Virus record (IMG/VR): IMGVR_UViG_3300027908_000001
Span: 87,167 to 151,166 of that record
Source of the DNA: a virus
Taxonomy: Duplodnaviria > Heunggongvirae > Uroviricota > Caudoviricetes
Strand: one strand, 5' to 3'
DNA: 64,000 bases
Part shown: piece by piece, positions 34,269-57,731 of the stretch
How positions within the stretch are numbered: the stretch's first letter is position 1
Layout of the letters: every line of letters begins with the position of its first letter
Notes under the pieces: model-generated
What the model was told of the DNA's origin: nothing
The model's input: the letters and a program-made list of their open reading frames with translations, nothing else
The model's database searches: none
Program-made: the position numbers and the translations under genes

Positions 34269-35114
34269 TTATGGTTTCGCCAGCGCCGGGTTCGGCGTGA
34301 CCAATCGCAGCGACGTGAGGTCGCTCGAACGATTTGGGTCCAAGATGTCCGACAGCGGCACGTAGAAGGAGCCTTTGTCGCCCCACGAAGTTCCCCAGCT
34401 ATTTTCCACGATACCCCACCAAGGAATCGACTTCGCCCACTCTGGCAGCGCCAGCGCCGCGCCTTGGCTGTGTACCTTTTTCAGGTCGTTGGTGTATCCG
34501 TTCAGATACACTTCGTGTCCTCCGACAATGGATTCATCTGTGCCGGGAATGGGAACAATGCCGGTATCAGCCACGGTTTGCGACTCAAAACTCTCACCCA
34601 CGGAAAATCCGTAGGCAATTCCGAGCCCTTGCTGCAAGCAGTAGAACACCTTGCCCGCTCGCTGTTCCATGCCCCAATACTGAAGCAGGCGGTGCTTGGC
34701 TGCGTCATCCCACGCAGACTGCGGAGGGCTGAGCGTGAACTTCGTGATGTCGTATGGCCAGAGTTCCTCTGTGCAAACACCATTGTGTTGCAGCGCATGT
34801 ACGCCGTCAATGCTCATTGCTCCGGCGTCGGAATCAATTGTGCCCTCGCGCATGCGCTCACAAAGATATAGCATCAATCGAGATGGCGTGAACATTGGAG
34901 CACCGGCCTTCAGGAGCGCATACATCAAGGCGCGCGCGAGCGCATTAGCCGTACAGGAACCGAGTTGACCTTGGTCAAAAATAGGCACCGCAGCATTGTT
35001 GCGATTATCCACCACTGGGATGGTTGCAGAATCGGCGTCATTGGTTTCCGTGAATTGCGGCTTGTGCGGCAGACTCGGCCTCCAGCCATATCGCGCTATT
35101 TTTCTGGGTGTCAT
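34269..35114 (-). CDS. papain-like cysteine protease (C1A)
   Basis: DQGQLGSCTANA (Cys), GGHEV (His), VENSWGTSWGDKG (Asn). Confidence 0.93.
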   Translation of the reverse strand: MTPRKIARYGWRPSLPHKPQFTETNDADSATIPVVDNRNNAAVPIFDQGQLGSCTANALARALMYALLKAGAPMFTPSRLMLYLCERMREGTIDSDAGAMSIDGVHALQHNGVCTEELWPYDITKFTLSPPQSAWDDAAKHRLLQYWGMEQRAGKVFYCLQQGLGIAYGFSVGESFESQTVADTGIVPIPGTDESIVGGHEVYLNGYTNDLKKVHSQGAALALPEWAKSIPWWGIVENSWGTSWGDKGSFYVPLSDILDPNRSSDLTSLRLVTPNPALAKP

Positions 35115-36514
35115 ATCGTCATTCCTCTCGTTGGTTTAATTTCTGGAACATCCTTGGTCACGTTCTCGTTAGGAAATTCTGCATCGGGCACCGGTACATC
35201 GAGGAACTTGCATAGGTCGTTCCAACGATATTCAATGTCCTCGTCGGTGTTTACCACCAGCAAATCGTCAGGCCGGTCCTTGAAGTAATCCAGCACCTCG
35301 GCATTGTGTCGGCGATAACGCTCAAGGAATGTGAGCGCGTCAAAGTCGCGACGGCCGTAAATGATTCTGTGAATCTGGTGCGTAAACGGGTCCGAGTTCC
35401 ATGCCGACTTAAACGGGTTGGTCGGCGCGCTCCAATGCCGCTGTACGCTGCGGAGCCAATCGACTTCGTTGCGGACCGTCAGGATGAACTTCGAGCCCGG
35501 ATAGGCGATGTTCAGTTCGCGGAACAGCACCGGGATAGGCAGGTCGCACAGTGCATAAAACTTTTCCAGTGTCGGCGATTTGCCGCGTTCGGTCATCTCC
35601 CTCCAGATGGCCTTGGCCCAGTGCGCCGTTTCCCAGTGACCGCTGGAGAATCCCAAGAGCTTGAATGCTTCGTGAAGAGAAGTCGTGGCGGTCTTGTGCA
35701 TGCCGATGCCAAAGATGCGCGTGGGCACCGGCTTGAGCGAGGTGGACTCGGGAGAGAAATTCTTCCACACTGTGCCGCACCCGATACGGCCCTGATTGAC
35801 CACGGTCGCGTTCGGGTCCAGCCCGAACACTTCCTCGTAAGATACCAGCGCGGCATGCTTGTACTCGCGGAACCGCATCTTATCGTTGTGCATGACGGCG
35901 CGCAGATAGGAAGCGGGAATCTTGCGGCCGTCGACGCCCATGCGGCGTAACCGGGCGTTGAAATCCTTGTCGTCCGGTGAATGAGTTTCGTACTTCTCGT
36001 CGTACCCACCGGACTTAAGGAACGTATCCGCCGACACCACAATGCGTCCGCTGATGCCGCGCGGCAAACGGCCTTCGCCGTCCTTAATCATCTCGGCCCA
36101 GAGAAAGATTTCCTCCTTCGCCTGCATGAACTGTTCGGCGATGTAACGCGCGAACCCCGGTCCGGTAAAGTTGTCCGCATCGAGGTTCACGAGGATGTCC
36201 GCGCCTTCAAGGATGCCGCAACGATGAGCCATGTTCTTGGCGTGCGCCATGCGAAACGGACCGGGCTCGCGGTACTGGTAGAACGCGACCCTGCCTTCCG
36301 CCGATTCTTGAAAGAAATTTTCCTTCATGAATTCGGCAAGGTTGTCTGGAGAATTGTAATCCAGCACGACGAACACCGCGTTTGGATAATCGGCGTTATC
36401 GGCCAGATTCTTGGGCAGCGTAAGCTGGAGATGCGGAGTCCTCCCCTTGACGGTGGTGCAGAAAGCTATCCTCGGCACCTTGGAGCCAAGGGAGGTGAAC
36501 GGAACGGATGACAT
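35111..36514 (-). CDS. GT-A glycosyltransferase fused to a C-terminal sulfotransferase
   Basis: IAFCTT...VNLDADNF...GYDEKY...DDKDF; then IFGIGMHKTATTSL (5'-PSB loop) and KFILTVRN...WLRS (3'-PB). Confidence 0.88.
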   Translation of the reverse strand: MSSVPFTSLGSKVPRIAFCTTVKGRTPHLQLTLPKNLADNADYPNAVFVVLDYNSPDNLAEFMKENFFQESAEGRVAFYQYREPGPFRMAHAKNMAHRCGILEGADILVNLDADNFTGPGFARYIAEQFMQAKEEIFLWAEMIKDGEGRLPRGISGRIVVSADTFLKSGGYDEKYETHSPDDKDFNARLRRMGVDGRKIPASYLRAVMHNDKMRFREYKHAALVSYEEVFGLDPNATVVNQGRIGCGTVWKNFSPESTSLKPVPTRIFGIGMHKTATTSLHEAFKLLGFSSGHWETAHWAKAIWREMTERGKSPTLEKFYALCDLPIPVLFRELNIAYPGSKFILTVRNEVDWLRSVQRHWSAPTNPFKSAWNSDPFTHQIHRIIYGRRDFDALTFLERYRRHNAEVLDYFKDRPDDLLVVNTDEDIEYRWNDLCKFLDVPVPDAEFPNENVTKDVPEIKPTRGMTI

Positions 36515-36523
36515 GCCGCGCCC

Positions 36524-36552
36524 GCTATACGCCCTGCGAGCGCGAGAATCAA
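36524..36552 (-). promoter_or_regulatory. promoter sharing a 17-nt motif with 47215-47231
   Basis: TTGATT-N17-TATAGC; GCTCGCAGGGCGTATAG. Confidence 0.55.
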
Positions 36553-36968
36553 GCGGGAGTTGTGAGGCGGTAGGCGACCAGTATGAGGATGTAGAAGTGC
36601 GCCAGTTGGTCTAGGCCAATTACTAGCCAGCACTGGCGCGTATTGAAGTCGCCCGTAGACGGAAAATAACGGGCGATTGCGCCCTTGATGATGTCGATGG
36701 CCCAGTGGGTCAGCAGGATGAAAAGGCTGGCTTCAAATTGCAATAGGAATAAGTTCAATGCCCGGTCATTATCCGGAGGAACGATGAGCGGCCAGCATAT
36801 ACCCAATGTCATCAGACTACAAAATCCATGTATGGCGGCATGGGCGAAAATCGGGTGAATCGGCCAACCATTTTTCTTGGCGTCAATCATCCACGGCGTC
36901 AATAACGGCGTGAAGTCGCAGGCAATATGAACGGCGGCCAGAACCGCGAGGATGCCCCACCACGTCAT
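36549..36968 (-). CDS. DUF3307-family membrane protein
   Basis: AVHIACDF...AHAAIH...THWAIDIIK...GLDQLAH. Confidence 0.8.
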   Translation of the reverse strand: MTWWGILAVLAAVHIACDFTPLLTPWMIDAKKNGWPIHPIFAHAAIHGFCSLMTLGICWPLIVPPDNDRALNLFLLQFEASLFILLTHWAIDIIKGAIARYFPSTGDFNTRQCWLVIGLDQLAHFYILILVAYRLTTPA

Positions 36969-36970
36969 CG

Positions 36971-37327: not shown

Positions 37328-37699
37328 CTATTTGGCGGGCGGGACCGGCAGGGGTTTGAGTGTCACCGCCCAAGGGCCTTGAATCACGTCACCGGTCAGC
37401 GGTACCGGCATCTCGGTCACGATGCTGGCGGCATCGCCTGTGGCGAATTTCCGATAAACCACCGAGGTACCCAGCGGGGATAGACGAGTGGATGTTTGAC
37501 TGACCATGTTCGGAACGCCATTACTGAGCGGCACGGTCGTGTATTCGTGGCGGACAAGCCCCAGTCGGAAACTGTAGTTCTGATAGCCGATGTCCAGCCC
37601 GACAACTGTTGCCACATCGTTGACAATGGTCTTGTTGTTCACCGCGCAGCCCGAGAGGAGTAGGGCGGCGGAAACCGCTAAGGCGCTGATAATTCTCAT
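37328..37699 (-). CDS. lipoprotein
   Basis: MRIISALAVSAALLLSGC lipobox. Confidence 0.75.
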   Translation of the reverse strand: MRIISALAVSAALLLSGCAVNNKTIVNDVATVVGLDIGYQNYSFRLGLVRHEYTTVPLSNGVPNMVSQTSTRLSPLGTSVVYRKFATGDAASIVTEMPVPLTGDVIQGPWAVTLKPLPVPPAK

Positions 37700-40005
37700 G
37701 GCTTCACCCATAGACCGTTTTGCATCTGTTGCAGGTACACTTTCTCCAGCAATACATCCGTGAGTCCGGACCGCCGGGCCATGGGATTCCGGTCGCTATA
37801 CTCCGCCCGGGCTTGCGCGTACATTTGCCGGGTGAACGCGGCGGACGGACTGCCAGAATCTGAGAAGCGCGTGTTGCCGTTGTTCCAGTTCCAGTTGTGG
37901 GTTTGAATGACGGCGTCACTCGTGGAGTTCAACACAGGCCAGTTGTTGCCCGGCGATAGGAACGTGCAGCAACCGTCAACCAGCATGGAGCCGGAGGTAG
38001 ACCCGCCCACCCTGTACCAGTCGATGATGTAATTAGCCAGTCCCAATAAGAACGCGCCATTGAAGTTGACCACCGAAAACGCGTTCGATGTGGCCCGTGA
38101 AAAATTTGCGCCGGACGCGCCAATGTTCTCATGAAGTACGGACGCCAGATATGTCACGGTGCCGTTGCCGGACAACTGGAGAATCCGGTTGCCCGTGGTG
38201 TTCCCCGCTTCGTTGTAGATGGCCTCGCCGTAAAACTGGCCGCCATTCGTACACATCAAGCTCAGGACATTCACGCCGTTGTCCGTGTCAATCATCCGCA
38301 CCTTGCCATGGCCTTCCAGCAATACGTTGACGCCAGTGGTGTCATAGATAAGATTGCCAGCCACATCCACGGTCGTATTTGGGCATTCTCCCAAACGAAT
38401 ATTGGAAGCAGTGGACAAATTGATGTAGTTGTCTTGCACGTAAACCCGAGCGGCGGACGCGCCCACCCCCGTTACTGCTATCATGGCCCCGGCGGAATTA
38501 CCTCCCGCAAGTTGAACCTGAGAGAAGGTCACATGCGACGGGGCCGGGCAGGAGAACATCGTTCCCCCTGAAGAACCGTTCCAAGAAAACTTGGACATGA
38601 AACCGTCACCGACAATCCGCACATCCAAATTCGCTGGCATGCTTATGGTGGAACCAATGTTCCATTGGCCGCCGCTCGATGACCACGGGATATGCACAAT
38701 TGCACCATTCGCGGCGCTATTGATTGTGGATTGTAAAGACTGCGCGTTCAAATTGGAAACCGGCATGTCCAGCACAGTGCGATTGAGATTGGTGGCCTCG
38801 GGCGGAATCGCCGGTGAAGCGAACACTAAAGAACTGCGCGCGACCACGTAGTTGTCCACCAAATTTGTTTTCAAGCCGCTTCCCGCCGAAATCCAGCCGG
38901 TCGTGCAATTCGTGTTGCCGATGGCGGTCAGGTCAATCTGAAGCGAGTTGCCCGCGATTACAGAAGCGCCACTTGCGCACGCAATGATATTATCGAGCAT
39001 TACCAATGGACCCGGTTGTCCCATGACGACCGGCGTTTTAGCGTCAATGATGGTATTGCCCTTAATCAAGGTCGGCGTAATGTTCGCCCCTTGATTGGCC
39101 GTCTGGTAGAAAGTACCCGCACGCACGCTGATGTTGCTCACCAGTGACACGTAGGAGGCGGCAGGTGACATATAGAAGTCCGTCTGGTCGTCCACCAGTA
39201 CGCTGTGATATAAATGAGCGTTACCCGTTTGAACGTACACGCCCGTCTGGCAATTGGTAAAAAGACAGTCGCGCAACCACGCATCCAGCGCGTTGTAGTT
39301 CCAAGTCTGCAAGCCAACGCTCAATCCTATGAACTGGCAACGAGTAAACCCTTCATTGGAAAATCCTGCGCCATAGAAGCCGCCGTCGACCCCGTGCCCG
39401 CCGGACGCTCCGTTTTTAAAGACCAAATCCTCAAACGTGTTCGCGTTGTCGAAGTAGGTATAGCCGCTGTTTTCACTGCAACTCAATAATGTTTTTGACT
39501 TACCGTTACCGTCCAGCGTTAGTCGGGCCAGCACAATCTGTTGGACTGAATCCAAGTGCAGAACCGTCGAACCATCGGAATAAGCTGTACCGGTAGCACC
39601 ATCGTACTTGAGCGTCGTATCGCTGGAACTATGGCCTAATATCTCAACCATCTGCCGATTATGCAGGTAGAGTTTGGCGGTAACGCGGTAGGTGCCGGGC
39701 GGGAAGTACAATACCGGTGAAGCCGAGCCTAGCCCCACGCTGGCGAGCGCCTTGTTAATGGCCGCCGTATCATCCGTCACTCCGTCCCCAACGGCCCCAT
39801 AGGTCGTTTTTACGTTCGACCAGCTATTGAATGGACCGTACCATTCATTGAATGCCGTATTCATCGGTGGTGTCGGAGGCGCGGGCGCGGCCAGCGTTGT
39901 GACACCTGTCATATTTGATGGCGGCGACGTAACCGCCTGCGCCTTGTAACCCGAGAGCGCTAGGAGTGTAGAAAGCGCCAATATCCAAAAACGAGATTTC
40001 ATCAT
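37696..40005 (-). CDS. secreted right-handed beta-helix glycosidase/lyase-like protein (Pectate_lyase_3 / GH55-like)
   Basis: Signal peptide ...YKAQA; NVKTTYGAVGDGVTDDTAAINKAL, LYFPPGTY; second beta-helix module. Confidence 0.85.
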   Translation of the reverse strand: MMKSRFWILALSTLLALSGYKAQAVTSPPSNMTGVTTLAAPAPPTPPMNTAFNEWYGPFNSWSNVKTTYGAVGDGVTDDTAAINKALASVGLGSASPVLYFPPGTYRVTAKLYLHNRQMVEILGHSSSDTTLKYDGATGTAYSDGSTVLHLDSVQQIVLARLTLDGNGKSKTLLSCSENSGYTYFDNANTFEDLVFKNGASGGHGVDGGFYGAGFSNEGFTRCQFIGLSVGLQTWNYNALDAWLRDCLFTNCQTGVYVQTGNAHLYHSVLVDDQTDFYMSPAASYVSLVSNISVRAGTFYQTANQGANITPTLIKGNTIIDAKTPVVMGQPGPLVMLDNIIACASGASVIAGNSLQIDLTAIGNTNCTTGWISAGSGLKTNLVDNYVVARSSLVFASPAIPPEATNLNRTVLDMPVSNLNAQSLQSTINSAANGAIVHIPWSSSGGQWNIGSTISMPANLDVRIVGDGFMSKFSWNGSSGGTMFSCPAPSHVTFSQVQLAGGNSAGAMIAVTGVGASAARVYVQDNYINLSTASNIRLGECPNTTVDVAGNLIYDTTGVNVLLEGHGKVRMIDTDNGVNVLSLMCTNGGQFYGEAIYNEAGNTTGNRILQLSGNGTVTYLASVLHENIGASGANFSRATSNAFSVVNFNGAFLLGLANYIIDWYRVGGSTSGSMLVDGCCTFLSPGNNWPVLNSTSDAVIQTHNWNWNNGNTRFSDSGSPSAAFTRQMYAQARAEYSDRNPMARRSGLTDVLLEKVYLQQMQNGLWVKP

Positions 40006-41033
40006 TGTGTCAATCCTATGGTGTTGACCGCAGCATAATTGGTCTGTGACGTGAATGTCACCTGAATTACACCGTTAGAGGGTACTACCACCGAATAATC
40101 AAGCTCGATACCCTTCAGCGGCCCTCCTGCGCGCAGCACAAGGTCAATCCCGCTATCAACGGTGACTCCATTAACGGCGATACTGAAAACCCGTTGGCCT
40201 TTGATTGTCCAGTAAATCTCCGCTGCAATCACGCGGAGCGTGAGCGTTGAGCCGGGCGGCAAATTCGTGAATGTGTACCCGGCAGGGCCGGTATTAAATA
40301 CCCGCTGCGTCTGCCAGACACCGGTTGGCGGCGGGTTGGTCATGAGCGAGGTGTTCACCACCACCGCTGTACCGGCGGAATTGGCAGTCTCCTTGTCCGC
40401 ATTGCCTCCGTTGAAGTCCATGTCGGCTACGTAAGGCGCGAAGCTGACCGCGCTGCCGGAGGCGATGAAGATGTTTGTGAACAGTATCGGCGGCGAGTTG
40501 GAGGTAGCCGCAGGCGTCCATGAAAAAGGCGTCTGCGCGTCGGAGAAATAACTATAGGCCGTGCTCGCTTGAACCGTGCTATCTGTAAATATCGTATTGG
40601 GATATAGCGCAAACGCAATCGGAAGGCCGGGCCATTTGTCCTGTCGATAGAGTTCGGCGAAGGCGTAGTTGGTGCTGGCCCATGTAAATCCGAGGACGAC
40701 GTTCGGTGAAGTCACGCTTATCGCTGTAAGATTTATCGGACCGGGCGGGCACCCGTTCGAGGAACATTGCGGACAAACATTGGTCGGCGGGCACGTCGGG
40801 CAAGTAGGACAGGTCGGGCAGTTTGCTGATGGTACATCCACCACGATGGATGCCATGCCGGTTACCGAGGCTCCCGGCCAAGGAACACCAAGCAAGGTGA
40901 ACGGTTGAGCCGTATAGACCACTGGCACTGAATAAGAAGCATTGCTGGTAATCGTCAGTGATTGAGGTGTCTGCGCCAGACCGGAGTGAACCACCAGTAG
41001 TAGCGCACCGATTAGAAGCCAAATATTTTTCAT
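40002..41033 (-). CDS. secreted malectin-domain protein
   Basis: Signal peptide MKNIWLLIGALLLVVHSGLAQ; CPTCP linker; AEIYW...GQRVFSIAVNG...IDL malectin motif. Confidence 0.8.
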   Translation of the reverse strand: MKNIWLLIGALLLVVHSGLAQTPQSLTITSNASYSVPVVYTAQPFTLLGVPWPGASVTGMASIVVDVPSANCPTCPTCPTCPPTNVCPQCSSNGCPPGPINLTAISVTSPNVVLGFTWASTNYAFAELYRQDKWPGLPIAFALYPNTIFTDSTVQASTAYSYFSDAQTPFSWTPAATSNSPPILFTNIFIASGSAVSFAPYVADMDFNGGNADKETANSAGTAVVVNTSLMTNPPPTGVWQTQRVFNTGPAGYTFTNLPPGSTLTLRVIAAEIYWTIKGQRVFSIAVNGVTVDSGIDLVLRAGGPLKGIELDYSVVVPSNGVIQVTFTSQTNYAAVNTIGLTQ

Positions 41034-41047
41034 GATAGAATTCTCCT

Positions 41048-41434
41048 TCATTGCGAAATCCCTTCTTCCGCGGCAACCGTGACGTTGCCGGTGCTCCAGA
41101 AATAGACCTCATTGCAATCCGTGCCGTACCACACGCCATTGGCTATGGTCGGAGGTTGAATGGCATATTTCGCGCCTTTGATGAGCAGTTCGCCATTACT
41201 CGTGGTTGACGAGATTCGCGAGACCCAGCCATCGCTCGGCCCGTTGTTTACAATGAACCCGGTCAACCGCAGCATCCCGCACCGATTGCTCATGACCAAC
41301 GTGCTGCTATTGGATGAAACGAGGGTGCTGTACTGCGCGTGCGGTTCGATGGTGCTTTCGCCGCGCCCGAATGCAATGAGCGCGAAGCCAGTGGCGGCCA
41401 GCGCTATGGTTAAGATGATTCCATATTTTTTCAT
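41048..41434 (-). CDS. secreted/anchored beta-rich protein
   Basis: MKKYGIILTIALAATGFALIAFG; SD AGGAG. Confidence 0.7.
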   Translation of the reverse strand: MKKYGIILTIALAATGFALIAFGRGESTIEPHAQYSTLVSSNSSTLVMSNRCGMLRLTGFIVNNGPSDGWVSRISSTTSNGELLIKGAKYAIQPPTIANGVWYGTDCNEVYFWSTGNVTVAAEEGISQ

Positions 41435-50900: not shown

Positions 50901-51000
50901 CGGTCACACCGCCGGATGTGGATGTTTGGCCGGTAGAGTTCCACCGCTCCAGTTCATCATACGGCCAGATGGCCGGGCCGTGATAGGTGTAGCCGACCAT
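47962..51000 (-). CDS. Thr/Ser/Gly-rich ~1010-aa tail-region protein
   Basis: Start reassigned to MVGYTY at 51000, after the upstream TAA; runs of Thr, very few Lys. Confidence 0.8.
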   Translation of the reverse strand: MVGYTYHGPAIWPYDELERWNSTGQTSTSGGVTVVSYTNNDGVGQSGVSGTTSTDGFFFSKNATGLTFVGGLSVAESGAFNNYSNEGEGTGTGSSNRTQILGNGFQEVSEVGTRAFTTTAVSGGSTVTITNGQVVISWTHIEMAYDEVGITFFGSDGETVASGGGAFTNDTPGTTSSSTRQALLWAINDETTTWSSVMGGTTFIPLSNFDFDTSSIGIAPNVTLTYAAYTTTAVTATEMVPTTTGGGDAATTNRTYTSTAITHTGTGTYSRKIVSNFDVFPDAVPPYLTTIVWVMEGGDTVANMLPGSRLIPFECGLSWSASPEYAVPFGKTGDITQTMTASTTRIDQSGFDLDGSLSLSAGQTHVFTQPWTSATGSGWSATTTQTVSWTDTFQSAPGASTTFSTNTRSAGNSQIWTTLMCVPQDNWLATGDSSSGMSSYVTSFNGPPFYAFTHTNISDQLTHTTATTLVGTVTEITTATTSPTFTWWNNMTSTSTVTVGVIDGVPGVITTGWIYPVVRGASVTYENSAGTVMTSDYDGSPLELQPTALTITARIPQPITMTVLTMYALAAGQQGASFTNTSVQATTGDATEGWTTSTFGAQNGVTNTYWNYYSYALGTFLDSQQSGAPDALNWQRAFGGEDFLCVSLAGRGYRPLVTSSDTRRFGWISIAYETSVLCWSTNSAGTTTSTACNFGIVASFNTDQPQYSWFGGNGVTTSWNLNEGASDDTGTGTWETGTFDTINLVDFSSQMDAPRMLWMLEAPGGFWLPFTLLSATTTDLEVLVNPTLTTSSVVTITVNGSYTADGTTAFLFNITDTSAQIAIYVGTGSVLSAVANYHGSIYLSDLQSVTGAGSYWTFLHEDADNTLFDWFDDAGLSTNPPWQMGWPQTVMTDDTVMVTPGNTTGTGGLYADKTYEWTVAPLTTIIGNGRTMQIGAGHRGFVTVNDTGGTGTATSSPGDSADGTARTIFNPASVFYNNVRYPNGDNGQLSTTARVWNDDPDDEQPEFINPIT

Positions 51001-51001: not shown

Positions 51002-51655
51002 TTAGTTGTAGCCTTTGACGACCCAGTTCCACACGCGAAGGTACGCCTCGCCTCCGGCAGCAACACTACTTGCCGGTGTCAAAAGAACCTGCCGAGGCTG
51101 ACAGGTGAACGGACCGTAATCAATCTGGTTAATCACGCGCGACCCGGCTGAGCCGCCGGTGATGTAGCCGAGCAGAATCGTAAACGCCGTCGGCGCGGCT
51201 CCTACTGCCGAACCAATGAGCGGCGCGGTTGGGAGCGAAGATGCCGCCGTCCAGCTAACGCCATTCACGCTAATACCATCCGCCGATGTCACGCTCAGGT
51301 ACACGTAACTCAGCGAGCCGCTCAATGTCACCCCCGCTCCGATGACCGTGCTCGGGTCCGGTGTCATCTGATTGACCACACCGGGAGTAATGTGACACGT
51401 ATCGGTGCCGCCGGAGGTAGAGATGCTGATAAGGAACTGCTGTGGGTCAACCGGTTCGTTTATCGTGGTGCTGGACGACCCTGATGACGCTGCGCCCGGA
51501 TTGACGGCGAACGTGGTGCCGTTTGACGACATGAGAATCCGCATGCCCTTGCCGGGTTGTGGAGTGATGGCACGCAACCACGCCTCGACGGCGTTAAACC
51601 ACTGGTGTGGTATCCTCGCCATACCCGGATAGATTCTTGGAAGTCGGAAGGCCAT
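51002..51655 (-). CDS. tail-associated protein
   Basis: Position after the tape measure; beta-rich. Confidence 0.65.
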   Translation of the reverse strand: MAFRLPRIYPGMARIPHQWFNAVEAWLRAITPQPGKGMRILMSSNGTTFAVNPGAASSGSSSTTINEPVDPQQFLISISTSGGTDTCHITPGVVNQMTPDPSTVIGAGVTLSGSLSYVYLSVTSADGISVNGVSWTAASSLPTAPLIGSAVGAAPTAFTILLGYITGGSAGSRVINQIDYGPFTCQPRQVLLTPASSVAAGGEAYLRVWNWVVKGYN

Positions 51656-51672: not shown

Positions 51673-52410
51673 TCACGAATACAAATCTTTATCGATGAAG
51701 TCGTAGCCCGCGAATTCCCTATCGCGAGTCCAGTATGGAAACTCCGAGTGCGCCCGGTCGGCTGTGAGAATCCACTGATAACCAACAGGACATCCGAAGA
51801 ATGGTGCCACGATGCTATAGGTGCCCAAAGCCGCGCCGACCGTCAACATCGTGTAACCAATTTCGTGGATTCGCGCTATCGGCGTGTAAACCGTGTAGGA
51901 ATCTTCTCCGTTCAAATATTTCAACGCATAGTCTTGCGCATTGGTACCGAGCGTAATAGTCCCGAGTGTGCCGCCATCGAACTGAAACGCCCGCTGCAGT
52001 GCCGCATTGGGTTCAGCCTGCCACTTCTGGATGTTCAACTGGTCCGTGCTGGTTAATGCCCGTGCGCCGCCGGTCAAATACCGAGGATGCGACAAAAGCG
52101 GCTTCTGCAACGGCGTCCAGTCCACTTCAAACGTCGCCAGCGCATTCCGGTTTTCCGCCTCGACAATCAACCGACACGCGCCGCCTTTGGCCAATGGTTC
52201 CAGTTTACACGACATCACCAGATACGCGCCGCCACTGATGCCAACGCCGATGTTCGCCCCAATCGCCGGTAGCGCCGCCTGCGCCGCCGCATAGGTCGGG
52301 TACTCGGTGACCTTGGTAATCTTGTCCATCTGGTAGGACCGCTCCAGCCGGTTGTTCTCAGGCTGGATGACCGGACTACTAAAACTGACCAGTGTTGGAT
52401 GTGCGGACAT
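51673..52410 (-). CDS. distal-tail/baseplate-hub-region protein
   Basis: First gene after the tape measure; QKPLLSHPRY. Confidence 0.6.
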   Translation of the reverse strand: MSAHPTLVSFSSPVIQPENNRLERSYQMDKITKVTEYPTYAAAQAALPAIGANIGVGISGGAYLVMSCKLEPLAKGGACRLIVEAENRNALATFEVDWTPLQKPLLSHPRYLTGGARALTSTDQLNIQKWQAEPNAALQRAFQFDGGTLGTITLGTNAQDYALKYLNGEDSYTVYTPIARIHEIGYTMLTVGAALGTYSIVAPFFGCPVGYQWILTADRAHSEFPYWTRDREFAGYDFIDKDLYS

Positions 52411-52419: not shown

Positions 52420-55400
52420 TTAGCTAACGACTCCTCCGTTTTCGCTGCGGCCATCCGGCTTCTTCGGCGTGACGTGCTCGGCTATCTTGGCCGTGTTGGC
52501 CGCAGTGGCCCGGGCATAGCGGACCGATTCCGGGTCCTGCCGTACCGGGCCAATGGCCGCGCGTGCCATCATTTCTGGCTGGCTGTTCAATCCCATTGTG
52601 CCAAGGCTGTCATGGGCGACGGCTGGCAATCCGCCGTTGAGCATCATCATGCCCATGTTCGGCACGCCGCGGACACCGGCAAATAAACCTTTCGACCGGT
52701 CGGAATCCGTCAGCCGTTCCAGCTTGGTTTGCTGGTTCTTGAGCGCTTCCTCGTTCCGCAGCATGCTGGAGGCCATGGCTTCCGGGTCGAACCCGTTTTC
52801 CTTGGTGAACCCTTCCGCAGCCAGTTCCTTGACCTTCTCACGGAGCTTGATTTGGCGTTCAAGCTGGTTGGCTTCCTGATAATTACCGGCCACTTTCAGG
52901 GACGTGACGCGGGCTTCGTCGAGCGTCTTTTGGCGGTCGGGCGCTTTCTCGTTGAACAAGTGCGCCTGCGCCTCGGCCAGAGCATCGGCATTGGCTTTGG
53001 CGTCTTGGTCAGCGTCATCCTTGTATTTGCCGCTCTCGATAATGAGTTTTTTGTATTCCTTGGTGAGGTCAACGAGGCGTTGCTGGTTCTCCAGTTCGGC
53101 TGCACCGGCAAAATTGCCTTGCGCCTTGAGTTGCAGAATCTCGTTTTCAATCTGCATTTTCTCCAGCGCCAATTTCTTCTCGTATTCCGCCGCGGCCTCG
53201 TCGTCGGCGCGCTGGGAAAAACCAACTTGGTCTGGAGTGGCATTGCCGTACATGCGCGCGTATTGCGCCGGATTTTCCCGTTGAAGCTTCGCGGCCTTCT
53301 CGGTCAGTTCTGCCAATTTTTCCGCTCGGTCAATTTCGGCTACAGCGCCGGTGTTTCCAGCGGCTTGTGCATGCAGCTTGGCCACGTCAGATTGATGCTT
53401 TACGACTTCGGCAGCTAGGTCGGCCTGTTCCTGTTGCGCTTTCAACATCTTATCGGCATCGGTCAGGATTTCCTTGGACAAGTCCTCATACATCTTGGCG
53501 AGCATGAGTTCCTTGCCCCATGCCGTAGTCGTCTCACCTTTCCATTCTGCGATAGACTTCTCTGCGCCAACCGACTTAGCAATCTCTGCGGCATTAGCCT
53601 TGTGCGCCTCGGCTTCATCCATCAGTTCTCCTGCTCGTTCGCGAGTAGGGGAAATGCCGGAAACTTCGCTTTGACCTGATAGGCGGTTGAACTGCTCAAC
53701 GACTTCTCTGGCGTGGTCATCGATGGCGCTGATTTTTGCCGTGGCGTCCGTGGCGACATCGATTTGGAGTTCATACCGTCTGGCGGTCAATTTACTCAAC
53801 TCGGTGGCCACCTGATGCAGGTGCTGCTCAGTCTGAACCCAGTGCTCTGGTTTGAGCATTTCCGGTATGGATTGTGCATCGCCGGTCATCATCTTGTTGA
53901 TGGCCATGATGTCGGCCGGTCCGCCGCCTCCGGGTAGCCCGGCATCCGGTATGCCTTGCAGGTGTTTCAGACGCTTCCGCGCGTCATCCAGCATTCCCGG
54001 CCCGCTCTTAATGGATTCCGCTGCGCTGTTCGCGGATTGATAGTTGTCATTGGCTTCCGCCGCCGCCTTGACAGCAGCGCGATAACGCATGGAGGATGTT
54101 CCGCCGGTGCTCAATCGGGCAGCCTCGACTTCCGCATCCGCCGCATTTTTCTTATCGAGGAACGGCTGCGCCTTCTTCACTGCATCGTTGTAATCTTCTT
54201 GAAGCTCGTCCACCACTTGTTGCTGTTGTTTTACATCCGCCTCTTTTTCCGACTTGGTGGTTGGTTCGGTCTGGTCGCGATGGCGCTTCCGGGCTTCATC
54301 CTCCAAATGGGAGAGCTTATCGAACTCCGCTTCCAGCGCTTGCAGTTCGGCAATCTTCTGCATGATGATGTTGGTCGCCAATACCCCAATGAACGTGCCA
54401 ATACTGGCCGCCGCCGCCAGACCGGCAATGCTCGTAGCTTGGAAGTCTCCGACCAGCGCCTTCATGGCTGAGCCAAAACTGTCCACCTTACCGGCGTTAA
54501 GAGCCGTAAAGAAGGATTCCGGCACCATCTTGCCTGCGGTCAATCCGGCGATGGCCGTCTGGCGCTGCAATGGAGTCAGACCGGCGATTCCGCCAGCGCC
54601 ACGCGCTGCCGCGTTCTTGGCTTGGGCCGCCGTATTCTCATTCAATGCCTGTGTCTCGGTCTTGATGCCAATGGCGGACTTGGTAAAAGCGACGATTTTG
54701 GCCGCCAGATTCTCCAGTATCTTGACCGCCATCATCGCGGAGTACGCAACCCCCATGGCAATGATGGCTTTAGTGCCGATACCGATAGCGTTGGCCATGT
54801 ACCCGAAGAACCCGACGATTCTTCCGATAACGGTCACGCCTTCGCCGATGTAGGTGATGAGGAGATTCAAGCCATCACCAATCACCTCGAATTTCTTGGC
54901 GACTTCCGCGCCATCCATGTCCTTGAACCGGGTCAGCAACATGTTCAAGGTAGGCCCCACCCGTTCGGCAATGACCGATGCAAACTCCGTGAACCGCAAC
55001 TGCAATGCCTTCATGCCCGTCTCGATGGACTCGAACATTTTCGCGTTGCGTTCCATCAACTGCGCGTACAGCGACATTGGCGCTTTCAGCTTGGCAACGA
55101 AATCCTCATCCTTCAACCCCGACAGTAATTGCGGCCCAGACCGACCGAACAAACTGCGCATCACATCCGTCTGTTGGCTCTGGTCCTTGAGTCGCTTGAG
55201 CCCTTCCGCGATGGCCGCCAACTGCATTCGTGCCGGTAGTTTCCGCAACTCATCCGCCCGCAGTCCCAATTGCTGAAACGCGCCCGCCGCGCCGCGCGTG
55301 TGCATGGCCACCGCATCCATGCCGCCACCGGCATCCGCCACCATCGATTGTCCGAGTCCGTGGGCTCCGCCAGATACCTGCGCGATGCTGCGCTGGAGCA

Positions 55401-55752
55401 TGAACAGGTACATGCGGAGGGATTCAGCAGAGATACCAACTGACTGCAACGCGCGCTGCATGGTCACCAAATCGCCCACCGACTGGCCGGTGGCCCGCGA
55501 AAGATTCAGGAGTTGCGCGCCCTTGGAGAAACTCTCGGTCATATACCGCATGGCGCTGCCCACGGAAGTCAGCCCAATCTGCATGCCGACCAGCGAAGAC
55601 GCCATGGTCACGATTTTTCCACGGAAACCTTCCAGTGATTGATTGACTTGGGAAGTTCTGTCGCCGATGGATTGGAGGGCGCGTTCCAGACCACTGAACG
55701 CGACGATAGCGCCGGTGTTATCGACTTTTATCTGAAAATTTAGCGGTTCCAT
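52420..55752 (-). CDS. tail tape measure protein
   Basis: 1110 aa, Ala-rich helical; LSRATGQSVGDLVTMQRA, LFGRSG; follows the chaperone pair. Confidence 0.92.
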   Translation of the reverse strand: MEPLNFQIKVDNTGAIVAFSGLERALQSIGDRTSQVNQSLEGFRGKIVTMASSLVGMQIGLTSVGSAMRYMTESFSKGAQLLNLSRATGQSVGDLVTMQRALQSVGISAESLRMYLFMLQRSIAQVSGGAHGLGQSMVADAGGGMDAVAMHTRGAAGAFQQLGLRADELRKLPARMQLAAIAEGLKRLKDQSQQTDVMRSLFGRSGPQLLSGLKDEDFVAKLKAPMSLYAQLMERNAKMFESIETGMKALQLRFTEFASVIAERVGPTLNMLLTRFKDMDGAEVAKKFEVIGDGLNLLITYIGEGVTVIGRIVGFFGYMANAIGIGTKAIIAMGVAYSAMMAVKILENLAAKIVAFTKSAIGIKTETQALNENTAAQAKNAAARGAGGIAGLTPLQRQTAIAGLTAGKMVPESFFTALNAGKVDSFGSAMKALVGDFQATSIAGLAAAASIGTFIGVLATNIIMQKIAELQALEAEFDKLSHLEDEARKRHRDQTEPTTKSEKEADVKQQQQVVDELQEDYNDAVKKAQPFLDKKNAADAEVEAARLSTGGTSSMRYRAAVKAAAEANDNYQSANSAAESIKSGPGMLDDARKRLKHLQGIPDAGLPGGGGPADIMAINKMMTGDAQSIPEMLKPEHWVQTEQHLHQVATELSKLTARRYELQIDVATDATAKISAIDDHAREVVEQFNRLSGQSEVSGISPTRERAGELMDEAEAHKANAAEIAKSVGAEKSIAEWKGETTTAWGKELMLAKMYEDLSKEILTDADKMLKAQQEQADLAAEVVKHQSDVAKLHAQAAGNTGAVAEIDRAEKLAELTEKAAKLQRENPAQYARMYGNATPDQVGFSQRADDEAAAEYEKKLALEKMQIENEILQLKAQGNFAGAAELENQQRLVDLTKEYKKLIIESGKYKDDADQDAKANADALAEAQAHLFNEKAPDRQKTLDEARVTSLKVAGNYQEANQLERQIKLREKVKELAAEGFTKENGFDPEAMASSMLRNEEALKNQQTKLERLTDSDRSKGLFAGVRGVPNMGMMMLNGGLPAVAHDSLGTMGLNSQPEMMARAAIGPVRQDPESVRYARATAANTAKIAEHVTPKKPDGRSENGGVVS

Positions 55753-55821: not shown

Positions 55822-56079
55822 TTAGTCAGGACGCCAGTGGTGCTTGAGGTCTTTTACATCCTCAATCACGAAGTCGAGGTCATCCTTTTCTTCGTAGCTC
55901 GGGTCGGCAAAGATTGCGCCATTCGCGACTTCGTTCTCGACCCACAACAGGAAAAGTTGGGAGAGCGGCACCTTGTGGAGCGCGTAATCGACCGTCCACG
56001 ACTTGAGCGACGTGATGCGCCCGACCAAACTGCAGGCCCAGCCTATGCCGGAAGAGGGCCGGGCCTCGATGCCAAAGGG
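55822..56079 (-). CDS. tail assembly chaperone, -1 frameshift extension (GT-like)
   Basis: Open -1 frame from the slip site: PFGIEARP...WTVDYALHKVPLSQLF; no start of its own. Confidence 0.7.
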   Translation of the reverse strand, partial: PFGIEARPSSGIGWACSLVGRITSLKSWTVDYALHKVPLSQLFLLWVENEVANGAIFADPSYEEKDDLDFVIEDVKDLKHHWRPD

Positions 56080-56465
56080 CTTAGCTGGTCCCCCGATTCC
56101 GGCATCTTGGTCTTGGCTGCGGTAGCGAACGCGGCTTGGATATGGGCGAGCAATTTGTCGCCGAGCGTGTTTAGGTCGGTCAACTGAATCTTGTTGCAGA
56201 GCCCGAACACGGCCGCATCGAAAGTTTCTGGCCCTTGCGCCCAGAACGCCAGACAATCGGACAGAGGCGTGGTGAGAACGTACACGGCACGGAACATATC
56301 CATGCTCGTGACTTCCTTCTTGCCGCCCTTGAGCAGTGGCGAGCCAATCTTGTCGAGGAACAGGTAAACGCCGAGCGTGAGCGGTTCGAGCTTCAGGTCG
56401 CCGATAACGAGATGCGTCGCCAAAAGGCTGTCGGTGACCACTGTCGGAGTGGAGGTTTCTGCCAT
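56043..56465 (-). CDS. tail assembly chaperone (G-like)
   Basis: Between tail tube and tape measure. Confidence 0.75.
   Translation of the reverse strand: MAETSTPTVVTDSLLATHLVIGDLKLEPLTLGVYLFLDKIGSPLLKGGKKEVTSMDMFRAVYVLTTPLSDCLAFWAQGPETFDAAVFGLCNKIQLTDLNTLGDKLLAHIQAAFATAAKTKMPESGDQLSPLASRPGPLPA
56073..56079 (-). other. -1 programmed frameshift slippery heptamer C CCT TTG
   Basis: X XXY YYZ geometry in the zero frame (AGC CCT TTG). Confidence 0.65.
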
Positions 56466-56488
56466 AAGATGTTACCGCGATTCAGGGA

Positions 56489-56824
56489 TTACTGAGGCAA
56501 CGCCGCGCCACGGACCCGCAACTTTTTGATTCCCTTTTGCTCCCACGCCTGCTCGACGGACTCGATGTAAACGGACTGGCCGCCCACGGTCATGTTGTCG
56601 CCGACGTTCGGTACGTTCGTGGTGTTTTCCACGAGGATTTCGTAAGATGCCTCGGCGTAGTTCGGCACATAGATGGTGCCGACCGGCACACCGTTGTCGT
56701 CCAGAACCGGAATCCGTTCCGCGTTGGTCGTGAGGGTGGCGGACGTGCAAAGGCCGACGACGTTGGTCATGCTCGTGCCCCATGTGACGTTTACGCCGCG
56801 TGCCTGCCTTGAGATATTTGCCAT
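56489..56824 (-). CDS. putative minimal tail tube protein
   Basis: 111 aa, beta-strand pattern, SD AAGGAG, synteny. Confidence 0.6.
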   Translation of the reverse strand: MANISRQARGVNVTWGTSMTNVVGLCTSATLTTNAERIPVLDDNGVPVGTIYVPNYAEASYEILVENTTNVPNVGDNMTVGGQSVYIESVEQAWEQKGIKKLRVRGAALPQ

Positions 56825-56859
56825 GTTGGTGTCCGCTCCTTAAAGTGTGTGCTTGTGCT

Positions 56860-56883
56860 CTACCATTCGCCGAGAAGGGTCAA
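56860..56883 (-). promoter_or_regulatory. putative late promoter motif
   Basis: TTGACCCTTCTCGGCGAATGGTAG upstream of the tail tube gene. Confidence 0.65.
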
Positions 56884-57731
56884 CGCGCTCGCGACAACCG
56901 GTTGACCGGTTCGGCCCGTGGCGTGATGAGTTTCAGGCGTTTCCCGAAATCGCCTTCAAACGTGTAGGTACCGGCATGGGCCAGCCTGCAATGGGCCGAC
57001 GCACGAATCTTGCCGCCCATGGCTATCCATCGCTGGCAAAAAAGAAAGTCTTCCGACAGGTACCGGTCGTTCACTATCCCGTAATCGAACAGGGCCGGTA
57101 TCCGTCGTTTCGGGCCGTCCGCGAAATCGTCGGTGTACGACAGTTTCTTGTAATGCTTCACCATGGCCTCTATCGCCGCGCGCTGGATGAGTAAGAACCC
57201 GGTGCCGACATAAGCCACTTCGATGCAGTCCCGGACCATCTTGCCTTCCCGGTTCGGGAGTGCGTTGACGACGTAGGAGAGCGCTGACTCGGCGGTGGTC
57301 TCTGCCGTGCCGTCGCCATTCGAGGTTCGTGCGTGGGTGAACGCCGCCTGCCACCGGAGTTGTTTCTTCGGATACACGCCGCCGACAATCGGGAAGTTGG
57401 CCAGTATCATCTGGACAAGGGCTGCCGGGTCAAAGGTGATGTCGGAGTCCAGAAATAGAAGGTGCGTACACTTGGATTCGAGGAAGTCGGCCACAAGCCT
57501 ATTGCGGGCGCGGGCGACCATCTCGCCATCGAGCATCCGTAACGCTTGCTGGACGCCCAGTCCTCTCAATATATGAGTGAGCTTGAACAGGGAGAGCATG
57601 CAGCCGGAATGGACTGAGCCTTGGTAGGTCGGCACGCCGATGAACAGGTTTACGTCCCGCAGTTCGGCATCGGTCAGGGGAGATTTGGGTTCGGAAATGG
57701 CGGTATTGCGATGGTTTGGCTTGGTACGCAT
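56880..57731 (-). CDS. GT-A fold glycosyltransferase-like protein
   Basis: FIGVPTY, ARARNRLV, HLLFLDSDI, VGTGFLLI, YLSEDFLFC, LAHAG. Confidence 0.88.
   Translation of the reverse strand: MRTKPNHRNTAISEPKSPLTDAELRDVNLFIGVPTYQGSVHSGCMLSLFKLTHILRGLGVQQALRMLDGEMVARARNRLVADFLESKCTHLLFLDSDITFDPAALVQMILANFPIVGGVYPKKQLRWQAAFTHARTSNGDGTAETTAESALSYVVNALPNREGKMVRDCIEVAYVGTGFLLIQRAAIEAMVKHYKKLSYTDDFADGPKRRIPALFDYGIVNDRYLSEDFLFCQRWIAMGGKIRASAHCRLAHAGTYTFEGDFGKRLKLITPRAEPVNRLSRAR

What the first reader, a model, noticed from the sequence alone, without database searches (positions are those of the whole stretch)
35111..57731. Three glycosyltransferases and two sulfotransferase domains within the virion module: candidate sulfated-glycan virion coat
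Seen: GT-A genes at 56880 (directly before the tail tube), 46012 and 35111, and sulfotransferase domains at 47252 and fused at 35111. The 47252 + 46012 pair directly follows the Thr-rich 1000-aa tail protein. All lack signal peptides, so they act in the cytoplasm where virions assemble. Established: some mycobacteriophages glycosylate capsid and tail-tube proteins with their own GTs, and sulfotransferases use host PAPS. Inference: this phage may build and sulfate O-glycans on its particle, which I do not recall being described. Modification of host surface glycans is the main alternative.
Basis: partly seen in the sequence, partly recalled or inferred. Interest (0 to 1): 0.85.

Follow-up and report, generated by a model that had tools for sequence, protein, structure and literature searches.

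The report
Phage tail-protein glycosylation module with sulfotransferases
An uncultured 197-kb soil phage, probably of Planctomycetota or Verrucomicrobiota, has a sugar-adding enzyme of an undescribed family (plus a sulfotransferase-like gene) directly after a very threonine/serine-rich tail protein, a pairing that recurs in dozens of other phages, so it probably sugar-coats that tail protein, while sulfation remains unproven.

Summary
All five enzyme domains are real, and all four proteins are soluble with no signal peptide. They do not look like one pathway.

**Main result.** The glycosyltransferase at 46012-47202 belongs to a conserved, unannotated, virus-borne GT-A family.
- In 43 of 46 other loci, the gene just upstream is that locus's most Thr/Ser-rich large protein.
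- That upstream gene often overlaps the GT start by 4 nt and follows the tape-measure gene and two small tail genes, as in this window.
- These Thr/Ser-rich proteins are mostly unrelated in sequence.
- All nine hits in bacterial genome bins are Planctomycetota or Verrucomicrobiota.

This supports glycosylation of a tail-tip protein.

**Sulfation is weaker.**
- The sulfotransferase at 47252-47950 has the right fold but lacks the family's near-invariant arginine in the PAPS-binding loop.
- Its family sits beside the pair only here and in two near-identical contigs; elsewhere it sits in glycan gene clusters.

**The other two enzymes.**
- The GT-sulfotransferase fusion at 35111 is a highly conserved phage gene found in varied contexts, and here it lies outside the tail operon.
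- Homologues of the GT at 56880 in T4-like phages lie among replication genes.

**Seen before in this scan.** The fusion, mucin-like fibre plus GT pairs (with other GT families), and a 20-kb glycan island in this same genome have all been noted earlier.

The parts
57744..57760 (-). Copy of the cis element TGACCC-N5-GGCGAA, 13 nt upstream of the GT start at 57731
   Evidence: 4 exact minus-strand copies in the window against 0.5 matches expected; 10 exact copies in the genome, all on the coding strand.
56880..57731 (-). Probable GT-A glycosyltransferase (P0004, 283 aa from Met19; the ORF is open from 57785). The acceptor is unknown.
   Evidence: phrog_1574 E=4.6e-34; Anp1 23.2 bits, below the cut-off. 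DxD motif (LDSDI) invariant in alignment A4. STIV A197 is the top PDB profile hit, E=0.08. Homologues in T4-like phages lie in replication modules.
56489..56824 (-). 111-aa protein in the canonical tail-tube position, preceded by a motif copy at 56866-56882. Its identity is unverified.
   Evidence: No PHROG, Pfam or PDB match. The assignment rests on position only, directly upstream of the chaperone gene.
56043..56465 (-). Putative tail assembly chaperone. The overlapping frame 55822-56256 is a possible frameshift extension.
   Evidence: BLAST homologues lie just upstream of the tape-measure-like genes in L041, L044, L050, L054 and L055.
52420..55752 (-). Putative tape measure protein (1110 aa), with a motif copy at 55775-55791. 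It is the first gene of the unit that runs to the GT at 46012.
   Evidence: BLAST homology to the long genes at the same position in L054/L055/L041/L044/L050 and in L073. The gene at that position in L047, a locus tied to the window through its 262-aa homologue of 51673-52410, hits tape-measure PHROGs. There is no motif copy between 55775 and 45998.
51673..52410 (-). 245-aa tail protein, first gene after the tape measure
   Evidence: Homologues at the same position in L047, L049, L045, L017 and L051, E down to 4e-15.
51002..51655 (-). 217-aa tail protein, second gene after the tape measure
   Evidence: Homologues lie directly upstream of the Thr/Ser-rich gene in L008, L009, L019 and L052.
47962..51000 (-). 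Thr/Ser-rich tail-tip or fibre protein (1012 aa from the ATG at 51000; the ORF is open from 51066). It is the proposed glycosylation substrate.
   Evidence: Thr 17.8%, Ser 9.8%, Lys 0.4-0.5% by start codon. No signal peptide. It is the only ORF of at least 300 aa in the genome with Thr+Ser of 25% or more. Compositional counterparts occupy the same position in 43 of 46 loci.
47252..47950 (-). Sulfotransferase-fold protein (P0002) with a degenerate 5'-phosphosulfate loop
   Evidence: AF2 pLDDT 92.4; the top 50 PDB hits are all sulfotransferases. Ser14 replaces the family's Arg, while H33, E34, H78, R81, P83 and S89 are kept. A 53%-identical paralogue at genome position 50391-51083 keeps the Arg.
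46012..47202 (-). GT-A glycosyltransferase of an undescribed viral family (P0001). It is the proposed tail-protein O-glycosyltransferase.
   Evidence: 81 homologues at 37-51% identity (most 40-48%), none with a Pfam domain. D116 is invariant and D114 nearly invariant. AF2 pLDDT 92.9; Foldseek matches GT-A enzymes, 1e-8 to 1e-5.
37328..45968 (-). Block of genes, five of them for proteins with Sec or lipoprotein signal peptides: a 1177-aa protein, a 337-aa protein, a malectin-domain protein, a pectate-lyase-like protein and a lipoprotein. Probably exported rather than virion parts. Preceded by a motif copy at 45982-45998.
   Evidence: N-terminal hydrophobic peaks of 1.7-2.7 and the sequences themselves. 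Pect-lyase_RHGA_epim E=7.5e-20; Malectin E=1.9e-6.
35111..36514 (-). GT-A / Sulfotransfer_4 fusion enzyme (P0003)
   Evidence: Pfam. 1561 homologues, the best 120 at 55-66% identity. Invariant residues in alignment A2 include D112, D114, T275, T277, S279, R348 and S356; K274 is nearly invariant. Its stop overlaps the start of the papain-like peptidase gene 34269-35114 by 4 nt.

Best explanation
**Setting.** The window holds the late (virion) region of a complete 197-kb phage whose host is probably a member of the PVC bacteria (Planctomycetota/Verrucomicrobiota).

**Core module.** The tail operon runs: tape measure, 245-aa protein, 217-aa protein, 1012-aa Thr/Ser-rich tail-tip or fibre protein, sulfotransferase-like protein, GT-A glycosyltransferase.
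- The glycosyltransferase at 46012 belongs to an undescribed, metal-dependent (DxD) GT-A family.
- It most likely works in the cytoplasm late in infection. It would transfer sugar from a nucleotide sugar onto Ser/Thr of the protein encoded just upstream, before or during tail assembly, so the tail tip carries O-glycans.

**Sulfation.** The sulfotransferase-fold protein between the two genes arose as a paralogue of a sulfotransferase in this phage's head-region glycan island.
- It may add sulfate from host PAPS to those sugars.
- It has lost the conserved arginine of the PAPS loop, so it may be weak or inactive.

**Other enzymes.** The GT-sulfotransferase fusion at 35111 and the GT at 56880 are separate enzymes with unknown acceptors. 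They are not shown to act on the virion.

**Shown:** the folds, the motifs, the synteny and the co-occurrence statistics.
**Inferred:** the acceptor, the sugar and any sulfation.
For: **Genome and operon**
- The record is a complete genome with direct terminal repeats.
- There is no copy of the shared cis element between the tape-measure gene and the GT. Intergenic gaps are 9, 17, about 1, 11 and 49 nt.

**Enzyme identity**
- P0001 is a confident GT-A model. Its nearest solved folds include protein-modifying GT-As: ColGalT1, LH3, POMGnT1 and ppGalNAc-T2.
- The DxD motif and three His residues are invariant across 48 family members.
- P0002 has a sulfotransferase fold.

**Co-occurrence of the GT with Thr/Ser-rich tail proteins**
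- In 43 of 46 loci the upstream neighbour is the most Thr+Ser-rich large ORF of the locus.
- Thr+Ser is at least 27% in 38 of 46 upstream neighbours, against 6 of 296 other ORFs (Fisher p=4e-36) and 0 of 177 ORFs in control viral loci.
- 24 of 29 GT clusters at 70% identity show the pairing.
- The partner proteins fall into at least 26 BLAST-unlinked groups, while the GTs stay 36-48% identical.
- 21 of 46 loci have a 4-nt overlap between the two genes.
- The same tail-gene order is seen elsewhere, with homologues of the 245-aa and 217-aa proteins and a tape-measure PHROG hit.
- Nucleotide-sugar genes follow the GT in L009-L013 and L016.

**Sulfotransferase context**
- An intact member of the ST family follows the same pair in L054/L055.
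- Members of the family sit beside GT2, GT-D-like, DXD-GT and UDP-glucose dehydrogenase genes in 3 of 5 sampled loci.

**Localisation and host**
- The enzymes and the Thr/Ser-rich protein lack signal peptides.
- All 9 hits in bacterial genome bins are Planctomycetota or Verrucomicrobiota, two of them on contigs of 0.28 and 1.19 Mb.
Against: - No biochemical data exist for any member of the family, and no cultured phage carries the GT or the ST.
- Conserved adjacency could partly reflect shared descent of one phage lineage. Loci are not independent: there are only 8 GT clusters at 50% identity.
- The Thr/Ser-rich protein looks folded (11% aromatic residues, no repeats). Its composition may simply be that of a beta-rich fibre.
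- P0002 lacks the near-invariant Arg of the PAPS loop.
- The P0002 family is not near Thr/Ser-rich proteins in 0 of 43 other viral loci.
- The genome encodes no APS kinase.
- The fusion and P0004 show no conserved link to structural genes.
Confidence: 0.5

Rival explanations
1. First reader's full model. All three GTs and both sulfotransferase domains cooperate to build one sulfated O-glycan coat on capsid, tail tube and tail-tip proteins.
For: - All five domains are real, soluble and on the late strand.
- P0004 and the tail operon each sit behind a copy of the same cis element.
- The genome also has a glycan island with an ST paralogue and a GT2 near head genes (earlier finding e1-1857332).
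Against: - The three GT families and the fusion do not co-occur in the 50 P0001-family loci or the 43 ST-family loci. The sole A4-profile hit (L088) is a single ORF that also holds the ST match.
- The fusion lies beyond the exported-protein block and occurs in unrelated contexts elsewhere.
- P0004 homologues sit in replication modules.
- The capsid candidate and the 111-aa protein have no Ser/Thr-rich tails.
- The tail-module ST has a degenerate PAPS loop.
Confidence: 0.1
2. The enzymes modify host molecules rather than the virion. Candidate targets are envelope or lipid-linked glycans, EPS or small molecules, for example to block superinfection or to remodel the surface before release.
For: - The neighbouring block encodes exported carbohydrate-active proteins: pectate-lyase-like, malectin and a weak GH-like hit.
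- Sulfotransfer_4 relatives with solved structures act on small molecules: SmSULT, Cpz8 and SgdX2.
- The fusion is 55-66% identical across very different phages, which suits a conserved, non-virion target.
- P0004 relatives are early or middle genes in T4-like phages.
Against: - For the 46012 GT, the tight and often overlapping linkage to Thr/Ser-rich tail proteins argues for a protein target.
- Pfam searches of the ORFs examined in 34-64 kb of the window found no flippase, polyprenyl-phosphate GT or Gtr-type membrane partner.
Confidence: 0.25
3. The 47252 protein is not a glycan sulfotransferase here. Either it is a pseudoenzyme that has become an accessory or substrate-binding subunit, or it sulfates the protein directly on Tyr, Ser or Thr.
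For: - It has lost the Arg present in 118 of 131 family members, while its paralogue keeps it.
- Tyrosylprotein sulfotransferases are among its structural matches.
- The Thr-rich protein has 3.4% Tyr.
Against: - The other conserved residues (H33, E34, H78, R81, P83, S89) are all kept, which suggests continuing selection for PAPS binding and catalysis.
- Members of the family usually sit among glycan genes.
Confidence: 0.15

Closest known systems
Mycobacteriophage virion glycosylation (Che8, Corndog, Myrna; Freeman et al. 2023, Cell Host Microbe, known here only as summarised in PMC12619734)
   Same: Phage-encoded soluble glycosyltransferases are encoded beside structural genes and are thought to glycosylate the phage's own virion proteins in the cytoplasm.
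   Different: - In those phages the glycans sit on the C-termini of capsid and tail-tube subunits. Here the likely target is a whole Thr/Ser-rich tail-tip protein.
- P0001 and P0002 have no detectable homologue in 50,697 phage records.
- The hosts are probably PVC bacteria, not Actinobacteria.
- No sulfotransferase is mentioned in the summary of that system read here.
Bacterial autotransporter heptosyltransferases with their adhesins (Aah/AIDA-I, TibC/TibA); comparison from my own knowledge
   Same: A dedicated cytoplasmic glycosyltransferase gene lies next to the gene for a large, folded, Ser/Thr-rich beta-structured adhesin, which it modifies at many Ser/Thr sites before export or assembly.
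   Different: The enzyme fold and family differ: P0001 is GT-A with a DxD motif. The substrate is a phage tail protein, and no homology was detected.
Mucin-type O-glycosylation by polypeptide GalNAc-transferases (GT27), and collagen ColGalT1 (GT25)
   Same: These are GT-A, DxD, metal-dependent enzymes that glycosylate proteins directly, and they are among the nearest solved folds to P0001.
   Different: - Sequence identity is only 10-14% and TM-score about 0.4.
- P0001 has a roughly 60-residue helical insertion and no lectin domain.
- The substrate has no PTS repeats.
Phage GT-A/Sulfotransfer_4 fusion family
   Same: P0003 is a typical member: 55-66% identical to the best 120 of 1561 homologues, with all invariant residues of alignment A2 present.
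   Different: Nothing sets this copy apart except its position, after an exported-protein block and overlapping a papain-like peptidase gene by 4 nt. The target of the family is still unknown.

Membership tests
GT-A fold glycosyltransferases (P0001, 46012-47202) | Rossmann-like GT-A fold | tested here: met
   AF2 pLDDT 92.9. 339 PDB matches at E<=1e-3, and the listed top hits are GT-A enzymes.
GT-A fold glycosyltransferases (P0001, 46012-47202) | DxD metal/nucleotide-sugar motif | tested here: met
   SLDSDVLP: D116 is invariant and D114 at least 90% conserved in 48 sequences.
Any curated GT family (Pfam GT2, Anp1, GT25 and others) for P0001 | Sequence match over the family threshold | tested here: not met
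   No Pfam or PHROG hit at E<=0.01, and none of 81 homologues has a precomputed Pfam domain. I treat it as an undescribed GT-A family.
PAPS-dependent sulfotransferases (P0002, 47252-47950) | Sulfotransferase fold | tested here: met
   AF2 pLDDT 92.4; the top 50 PDB matches are all sulfotransferases. A family member in L054 passes the Pfam Sulfotransfer_3 and Sulfotransfer_1 cut-offs.
PAPS-dependent sulfotransferases (P0002, 47252-47950) | 5'-phosphosulfate-binding loop with a basic residue | tested here: not met
   The family consensus is TGCGRSGT with Arg in 118 of 131 sequences. P0002 reads TGCMSSGT (Ser14). The paralogue P0005 and the L054 member keep the Arg.
PAPS-dependent sulfotransferases (P0002, 47252-47950) | 3'-phosphate-binding motif (R...S) and conserved His/Glu | tested here: met
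   R81, P83, S89, H33, E34 and H78 are all retained. Their catalytic roles are inferred from the family, not tested.
Sulfotransfer_4 (PF17784), C-terminal half of P0003 | Pfam match over the gathering score, with intact PAPS motifs | tested here: met
   118.3 bits against a 22.8 cut-off. KTATTS and R348...S356 are invariant or nearly invariant in alignment A2.
GT-A (Glyco_tranf_2_2 / Glyco_transf_7C-like), N-terminal half of P0003 | Family match plus DxD motif | tested here: inconclusive
   This copy scores 24.2 bits, below the 27.3 cut-off. Many homologues at about 60% identity carry PF10111 and/or PF02709, and the DAD motif (D112, D114) is invariant.
GT-A (Anp1/GT2-like), P0004 | Family match plus DxD motif | tested here: inconclusive
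   Anp1 scores 23.2 bits, below the 28.8 cut-off. phrog_1574 (function unknown) E=4.6e-34 and phrog_34859 'glycosyltransferase' E=5.6e-4. The DxD motif is invariant in A4, and STIV A197 is the top PDB profile hit at E=0.08. It was not folded.
Mycobacteriophage-type virion glycosylation system | Homology of the GTs to those of Che8, Corndog or Myrna | tested here: not met
   tblastn of P0001 and P0002 against 50,697 phage records found no match. P0003 matched one unannotated faecal phage contig only.
Mycobacteriophage-type virion glycosylation system | Glycans on virion proteins | not testable with these tools
   This needs virions or recombinant proteins and mass spectrometry.
Mucin-like (PTS) domain, for the 47962-51000 protein | Long Pro/Thr/Ser runs or tandem repeats with predicted disorder | tested here: not met
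   No tandem repeats. The longest Ser/Thr run is 6 residues. Trp+Tyr+Phe make up 11% and are spread evenly.

The most novel reading that the evidence does not exclude
Phages of Planctomycetota and Verrucomicrobiota use an undescribed GT-A family to O-glycosylate their tail-tip protein. In this phage, and in the L054/L055 lineage, those glycans are further sulfated. The tail tip would then display a sulfated glycan resembling the sulfated polysaccharides that such hosts are known to bind and degrade, so adsorption would work by glycan mimicry. This would be the first sulfated virion glycan in a phage.
Probability: 0.12. Interest if true: 0.85.

Novelty: new variant of a known kind. Interest (0 to 1): 0.6.

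Why it matters
- Virion glycosylation by phage enzymes is experimentally known only from mycobacteriophages.
- A second, unrelated enzyme family that is tightly wired to Thr/Ser-rich tail-tip proteins in uncultured PVC phages would show that tail glycosylation is widespread. It would also give a defined two-gene pair (substrate plus enzyme) that can be tested by simple co-expression.
- If the neighbouring sulfotransferase is active, this would be the first case of a sulfated phage particle, with consequences for adsorption, host range and particle stability.
- No paper in the library searched uses the terms phage-encoded, viral or virus-encoded sulfotransferase.

Tried and rejected
- **Single-protein scans of viral contigs.** P0002, P0003, P0004 and the capsid-like protein gave no relatives or only one. 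Alignments were needed.
- **A3 alignment.** It was too diverse to scan with, so a closer subset, A5, was used.
- **hhalign of the P0001 family against P0004 and the P0003 N-terminus.** This gave only negligible matches, with probability below 2%. The three GT-A domains are not close paralogues.
- **phmmer of the window's Thr-rich protein against its 46 positional counterparts.** No homology was found.
- **PHROG and Pfam searches of tail proteins, here and in relatives.** Almost nothing was found. The tail-tube identity of 56489-56824 stays unverified, and PDB sequence searches of it and of 58858-59604 found nothing.
- **Promoter and terminator scans around both enzyme loci.** Counts were at or below shuffle expectation.
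- **Complex prediction of P0001 with P0002.** It gave no verdict (score 0.00), which is no evidence either way.
- **APS kinase and PAPS reductase.** Neither is found in the genome, so any sulfation depends on host PAPS.
- **Freeman et al. 2023.** The paper could not be read. It is cited only through PMC12619734.

Full report
**Setting.** The window is positions 87167-151166 of a 197,395-bp IMG/VR virus record with direct terminal repeats, rated complete. Between 34 and 64 kb the long, consistent ORFs lie on the minus strand. Few structural proteins match known families. The matches are:
- 61256-62251 is phrog_1623, a virion structural protein (E=3e-69).
- 37696-40005 has a pectate-lyase-like tailspike domain.
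- 40002-41051 has a malectin domain.

No DNA similarity to any of 50,697 phage records was found.

**The five claimed domains.**

P0003 (35111-36514):
- It has a solid Sulfotransfer_4 domain (E=5.6e-34) and a sub-threshold GT-A hit.
- It belongs to a very large family: 1561 hits, the best 120 at 55-66% identity over about 94% of its length. Many of these carry PF10111 and/or PF02709.
- DAD and R348...S356 are invariant and K274 of KTATTS is nearly invariant in alignment A2.

P0001 (46012-47202):
- It has no Pfam or PHROG hit.
- It has 81 homologues at 37-51% identity (most 40-48%), all unannotated.
- Its AF2 model (pLDDT 92.9) matches GT-A enzymes: ColGalT1 at 1e-8, then LH3, GnT-I, Mnn9, POMGnT1, ppGalNAc-T2, Mimivirus R699 and STIV A197.
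- The DxD motif SLDSDVLP is conserved.

P0002 (47252-47950):
- It has no Pfam hit.
- Its AF2 model (pLDDT 92.4) matches only PAPS sulfotransferases in its top 50 PDB hits. The Atlas agrees.
- An exhaustive search found 1535 family representatives.

P0004 (56880-57731):
- It is a probable GT-A on weak but concordant evidence.

None of the four proteins has a signal peptide or a hydrophobic segment.

**A caveat on the stand-alone sulfotransferase.**
- In an alignment of 131 family members the 5'-phosphosulfate loop reads TGCGRSGT, with Arg in 118 sequences. P0002 reads TGCMSSGT.
- H33, E34, H78, R81, P83 and S89 are all kept.
- Its closest relative anywhere is a 53%-identical paralogue in the same genome (50391-51083), and that copy keeps the Arg.
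- So the tail-module copy is a diverged duplicate that may be weak or inactive.
- The genome has no APS kinase or PAPS reductase.

**Main result: a conserved pairing of GT and Thr/Ser-rich tail protein.**

I scanned viral contigs with the P0001 family alignment and obtained 51 loci. Three more came from contig look-ups.

- In 43 of 46 loci where both genes could be called, the gene just upstream of the GT is the most Thr+Ser-rich ORF of at least 300 aa in that locus.
- Thr+Ser reaches 27% or more in 38 of 46 upstream neighbours.
- The comparison figures are 6 of 296 other ORFs in the same loci (Fisher p=4e-36) and 0 of 177 ORFs in 43 control viral loci.
- The pairing holds in 24 of 29 GT clusters at 70% identity.
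- The upstream proteins are 385-929 aa, with Thr 10-25%, Ser 10-19% and Lys 0-6% (3% or less in all but one locus). They fall into at least 26 groups with no BLAST link to each other. None is detectably homologous to the window's protein. The GTs, by contrast, stay 36-48% identical.
- In 21 of 46 loci the stop of the upstream gene overlaps the GT start by 4 nt.
- The wider order is also conserved: long tape-measure-like gene, about 250-aa protein, about 200-aa protein, Thr/Ser-rich protein, GT.
  - The window's 245-aa and 217-aa proteins have homologues at the same positions.
  - The first gene of L047 hits tape-measure PHROGs.
- Downstream genes vary. In L009-L013 and L016 they are nucleotide-sugar enzymes: cytidylyltransferase, SDR reductase, and epimerase/dehydratase.

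In the window, the 1012-aa protein at 47962-51000 has Thr 17.8%, Ser 9.8% and Lys about 0.4%. It is the only ORF of at least 300 aa in the genome with Thr+Ser of 25% or more.

It is not a disordered mucin:
- It has no tandem repeats.
- Ser/Thr runs are at most 6 residues.
- Aromatic residues make up 11% and are spread throughout.

A folded, beta-rich adhesin-like protein that is glycosylated at many surface Ser/Thr residues is the better picture. This is functionally like the AIDA-I/Aah and TibA/TibC pairs; that comparison comes from my own knowledge.

**Host.** All nine P0001-family hits in one-genome-per-species bacterial bins are Planctomycetota or Verrucomicrobiota. They include contigs of 1.19 Mb and 279 kb, which suggests prophages. 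The same synteny is seen in L066, L070 and L071. No cultured phage has the gene.

**Is sulfation part of the module?**
- A profile of the P0002 family found a member directly after the Thr/Ser-rich/GT pair only in L054 and L055, which are near-duplicates. That member passes the Pfam sulfotransferase cut-offs and keeps the Arg.
- In 43 other viral loci holding the ST family, none has a Thr/Ser-rich large ORF within four genes, and none has the P0001 GT.
- In 3 of 5 sampled loci the neighbours of the ST are GT2, a GT2-methyltransferase, a DXD-type GT, GT-D-like and UDP-glucose dehydrogenase genes.
- So the family looks like a glycan sulfotransferase of phage glycan clusters. It has been recruited next to the tail pair at least twice, but rarely.

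**The other two enzymes.**
- The fusion family occurs on phage-like contigs in varied places: among small ORFs of a 250-kb contig, near a T4 gp13-like gene, and between terminase and portal.
- In the window the fusion lies after five genes for proteins with Sec or lipoprotein signal peptides, an HTH gene and a DUF3307 membrane-protein gene. It overlaps a papain-like peptidase gene by 4 nt.
- P0004 homologues in Caulobacter phage Cr30 and Stenotrophomonas phage DLP6 lie between the peptide deformylase and sliding clamp genes, in the replication module.
- Neither family occurs in the 50 P0001 loci.
- The three GT-A domains are not close paralogues.
- P0004 does sit 13 nt behind a copy of TGACCC-N5-GGCGAA. 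This element also precedes the 111-aa gene, the tape-measure gene and the first exported-protein gene. It occurs 10 times in the genome, always on the coding strand.

**Verdict.**
- The part of the interpretation best supported is a dedicated glycosyltransferase for a Thr/Ser-rich tail-tip protein. That is a new enzyme family for a known kind of process.
- A single five-domain pathway making a sulfated coat is not supported.
- Sulfation of the tail glycan is possible but weakened by the degenerate PAPS loop.

**Relation to earlier findings of this scan.** The scan has already reported:
- the GT-ST fusion in other genomes;
- mucin-like fibre plus GT pairs with other GT families;
- a 20-kb glycan island in this same genome.

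New in this follow-up are the P0001 family, its statistics, its PVC host signal and the ST insertion.

Noticed in passing
window 37328-45968 (minus strand): Five consecutive late-strand genes encode proteins with classic Sec signal peptides (1177 aa, 337 aa, 349-aa malectin, 769-aa pectate-lyase-like) or a lipoprotein signal (127 aa). They occupy the place where tail fibres are expected. Most large proteins downstream of the GT in related loci lack such signals; the exception is a 1247-aa Laminin_G_3 protein in L008.
   Followed up: partly
window 45982-45998, 55775-55791, 56866-56882, 57744-57760; genome-wide 10 copies: The exact motif TGACCC-N5-GGCGAA occurs 10 times in the 197-kb genome, always on the coding (minus) strand. 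In the window's four copies it lies 13-41 nt upstream of start codons of structural or late genes. It is probably a late promoter or regulatory element.
   Followed up: partly
genome G000:C1:50391-51083 (outside the window): A paralogue (53% identity) of the tail-module sulfotransferase lies in the head-region glycan island and keeps the conserved Arg that the window copy has lost. A GT2 gene lies at 46556-47071.
   Followed up: partly
window 34269-35114 (minus strand): A papain-family (Peptidase_C1, E=9e-10) protein without a signal peptide. Its start overlaps the stop of the GT-sulfotransferase fusion by 4 nt.
   Followed up: no
window 55822-56465 (minus strand): Two overlapping frames (56043-56465 and 55822-56256) lie just upstream of the tape-measure gene and look like a tail-chaperone pair linked by a programmed frameshift.
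   Followed up: no
window 57813-58883 (plus strand): Among the ORFs judged real in this region, only a small set lie on the plus strand. They sit between the 248-aa protein (which has an Ig-like C-terminus) and the GT at 56880.
   Followed up: no
L048 and L058 (viral contigs): Two loci carry a P0001-family GT whose upstream neighbour is a Lys-rich protein of about 285 aa rather than a Thr/Ser-rich protein. They are exceptions that could reveal a different acceptor.
   Followed up: no
L009-L013, L016 (viral and metagenome contigs): Nucleotide-sugar genes directly follow the P0001-family GT: a cytidylyltransferase-like gene plus an RmlD-like reductase, or an epimerase/dehydratase. This hints at an unusual activated sugar as the donor in those phages.
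   Followed up: partly
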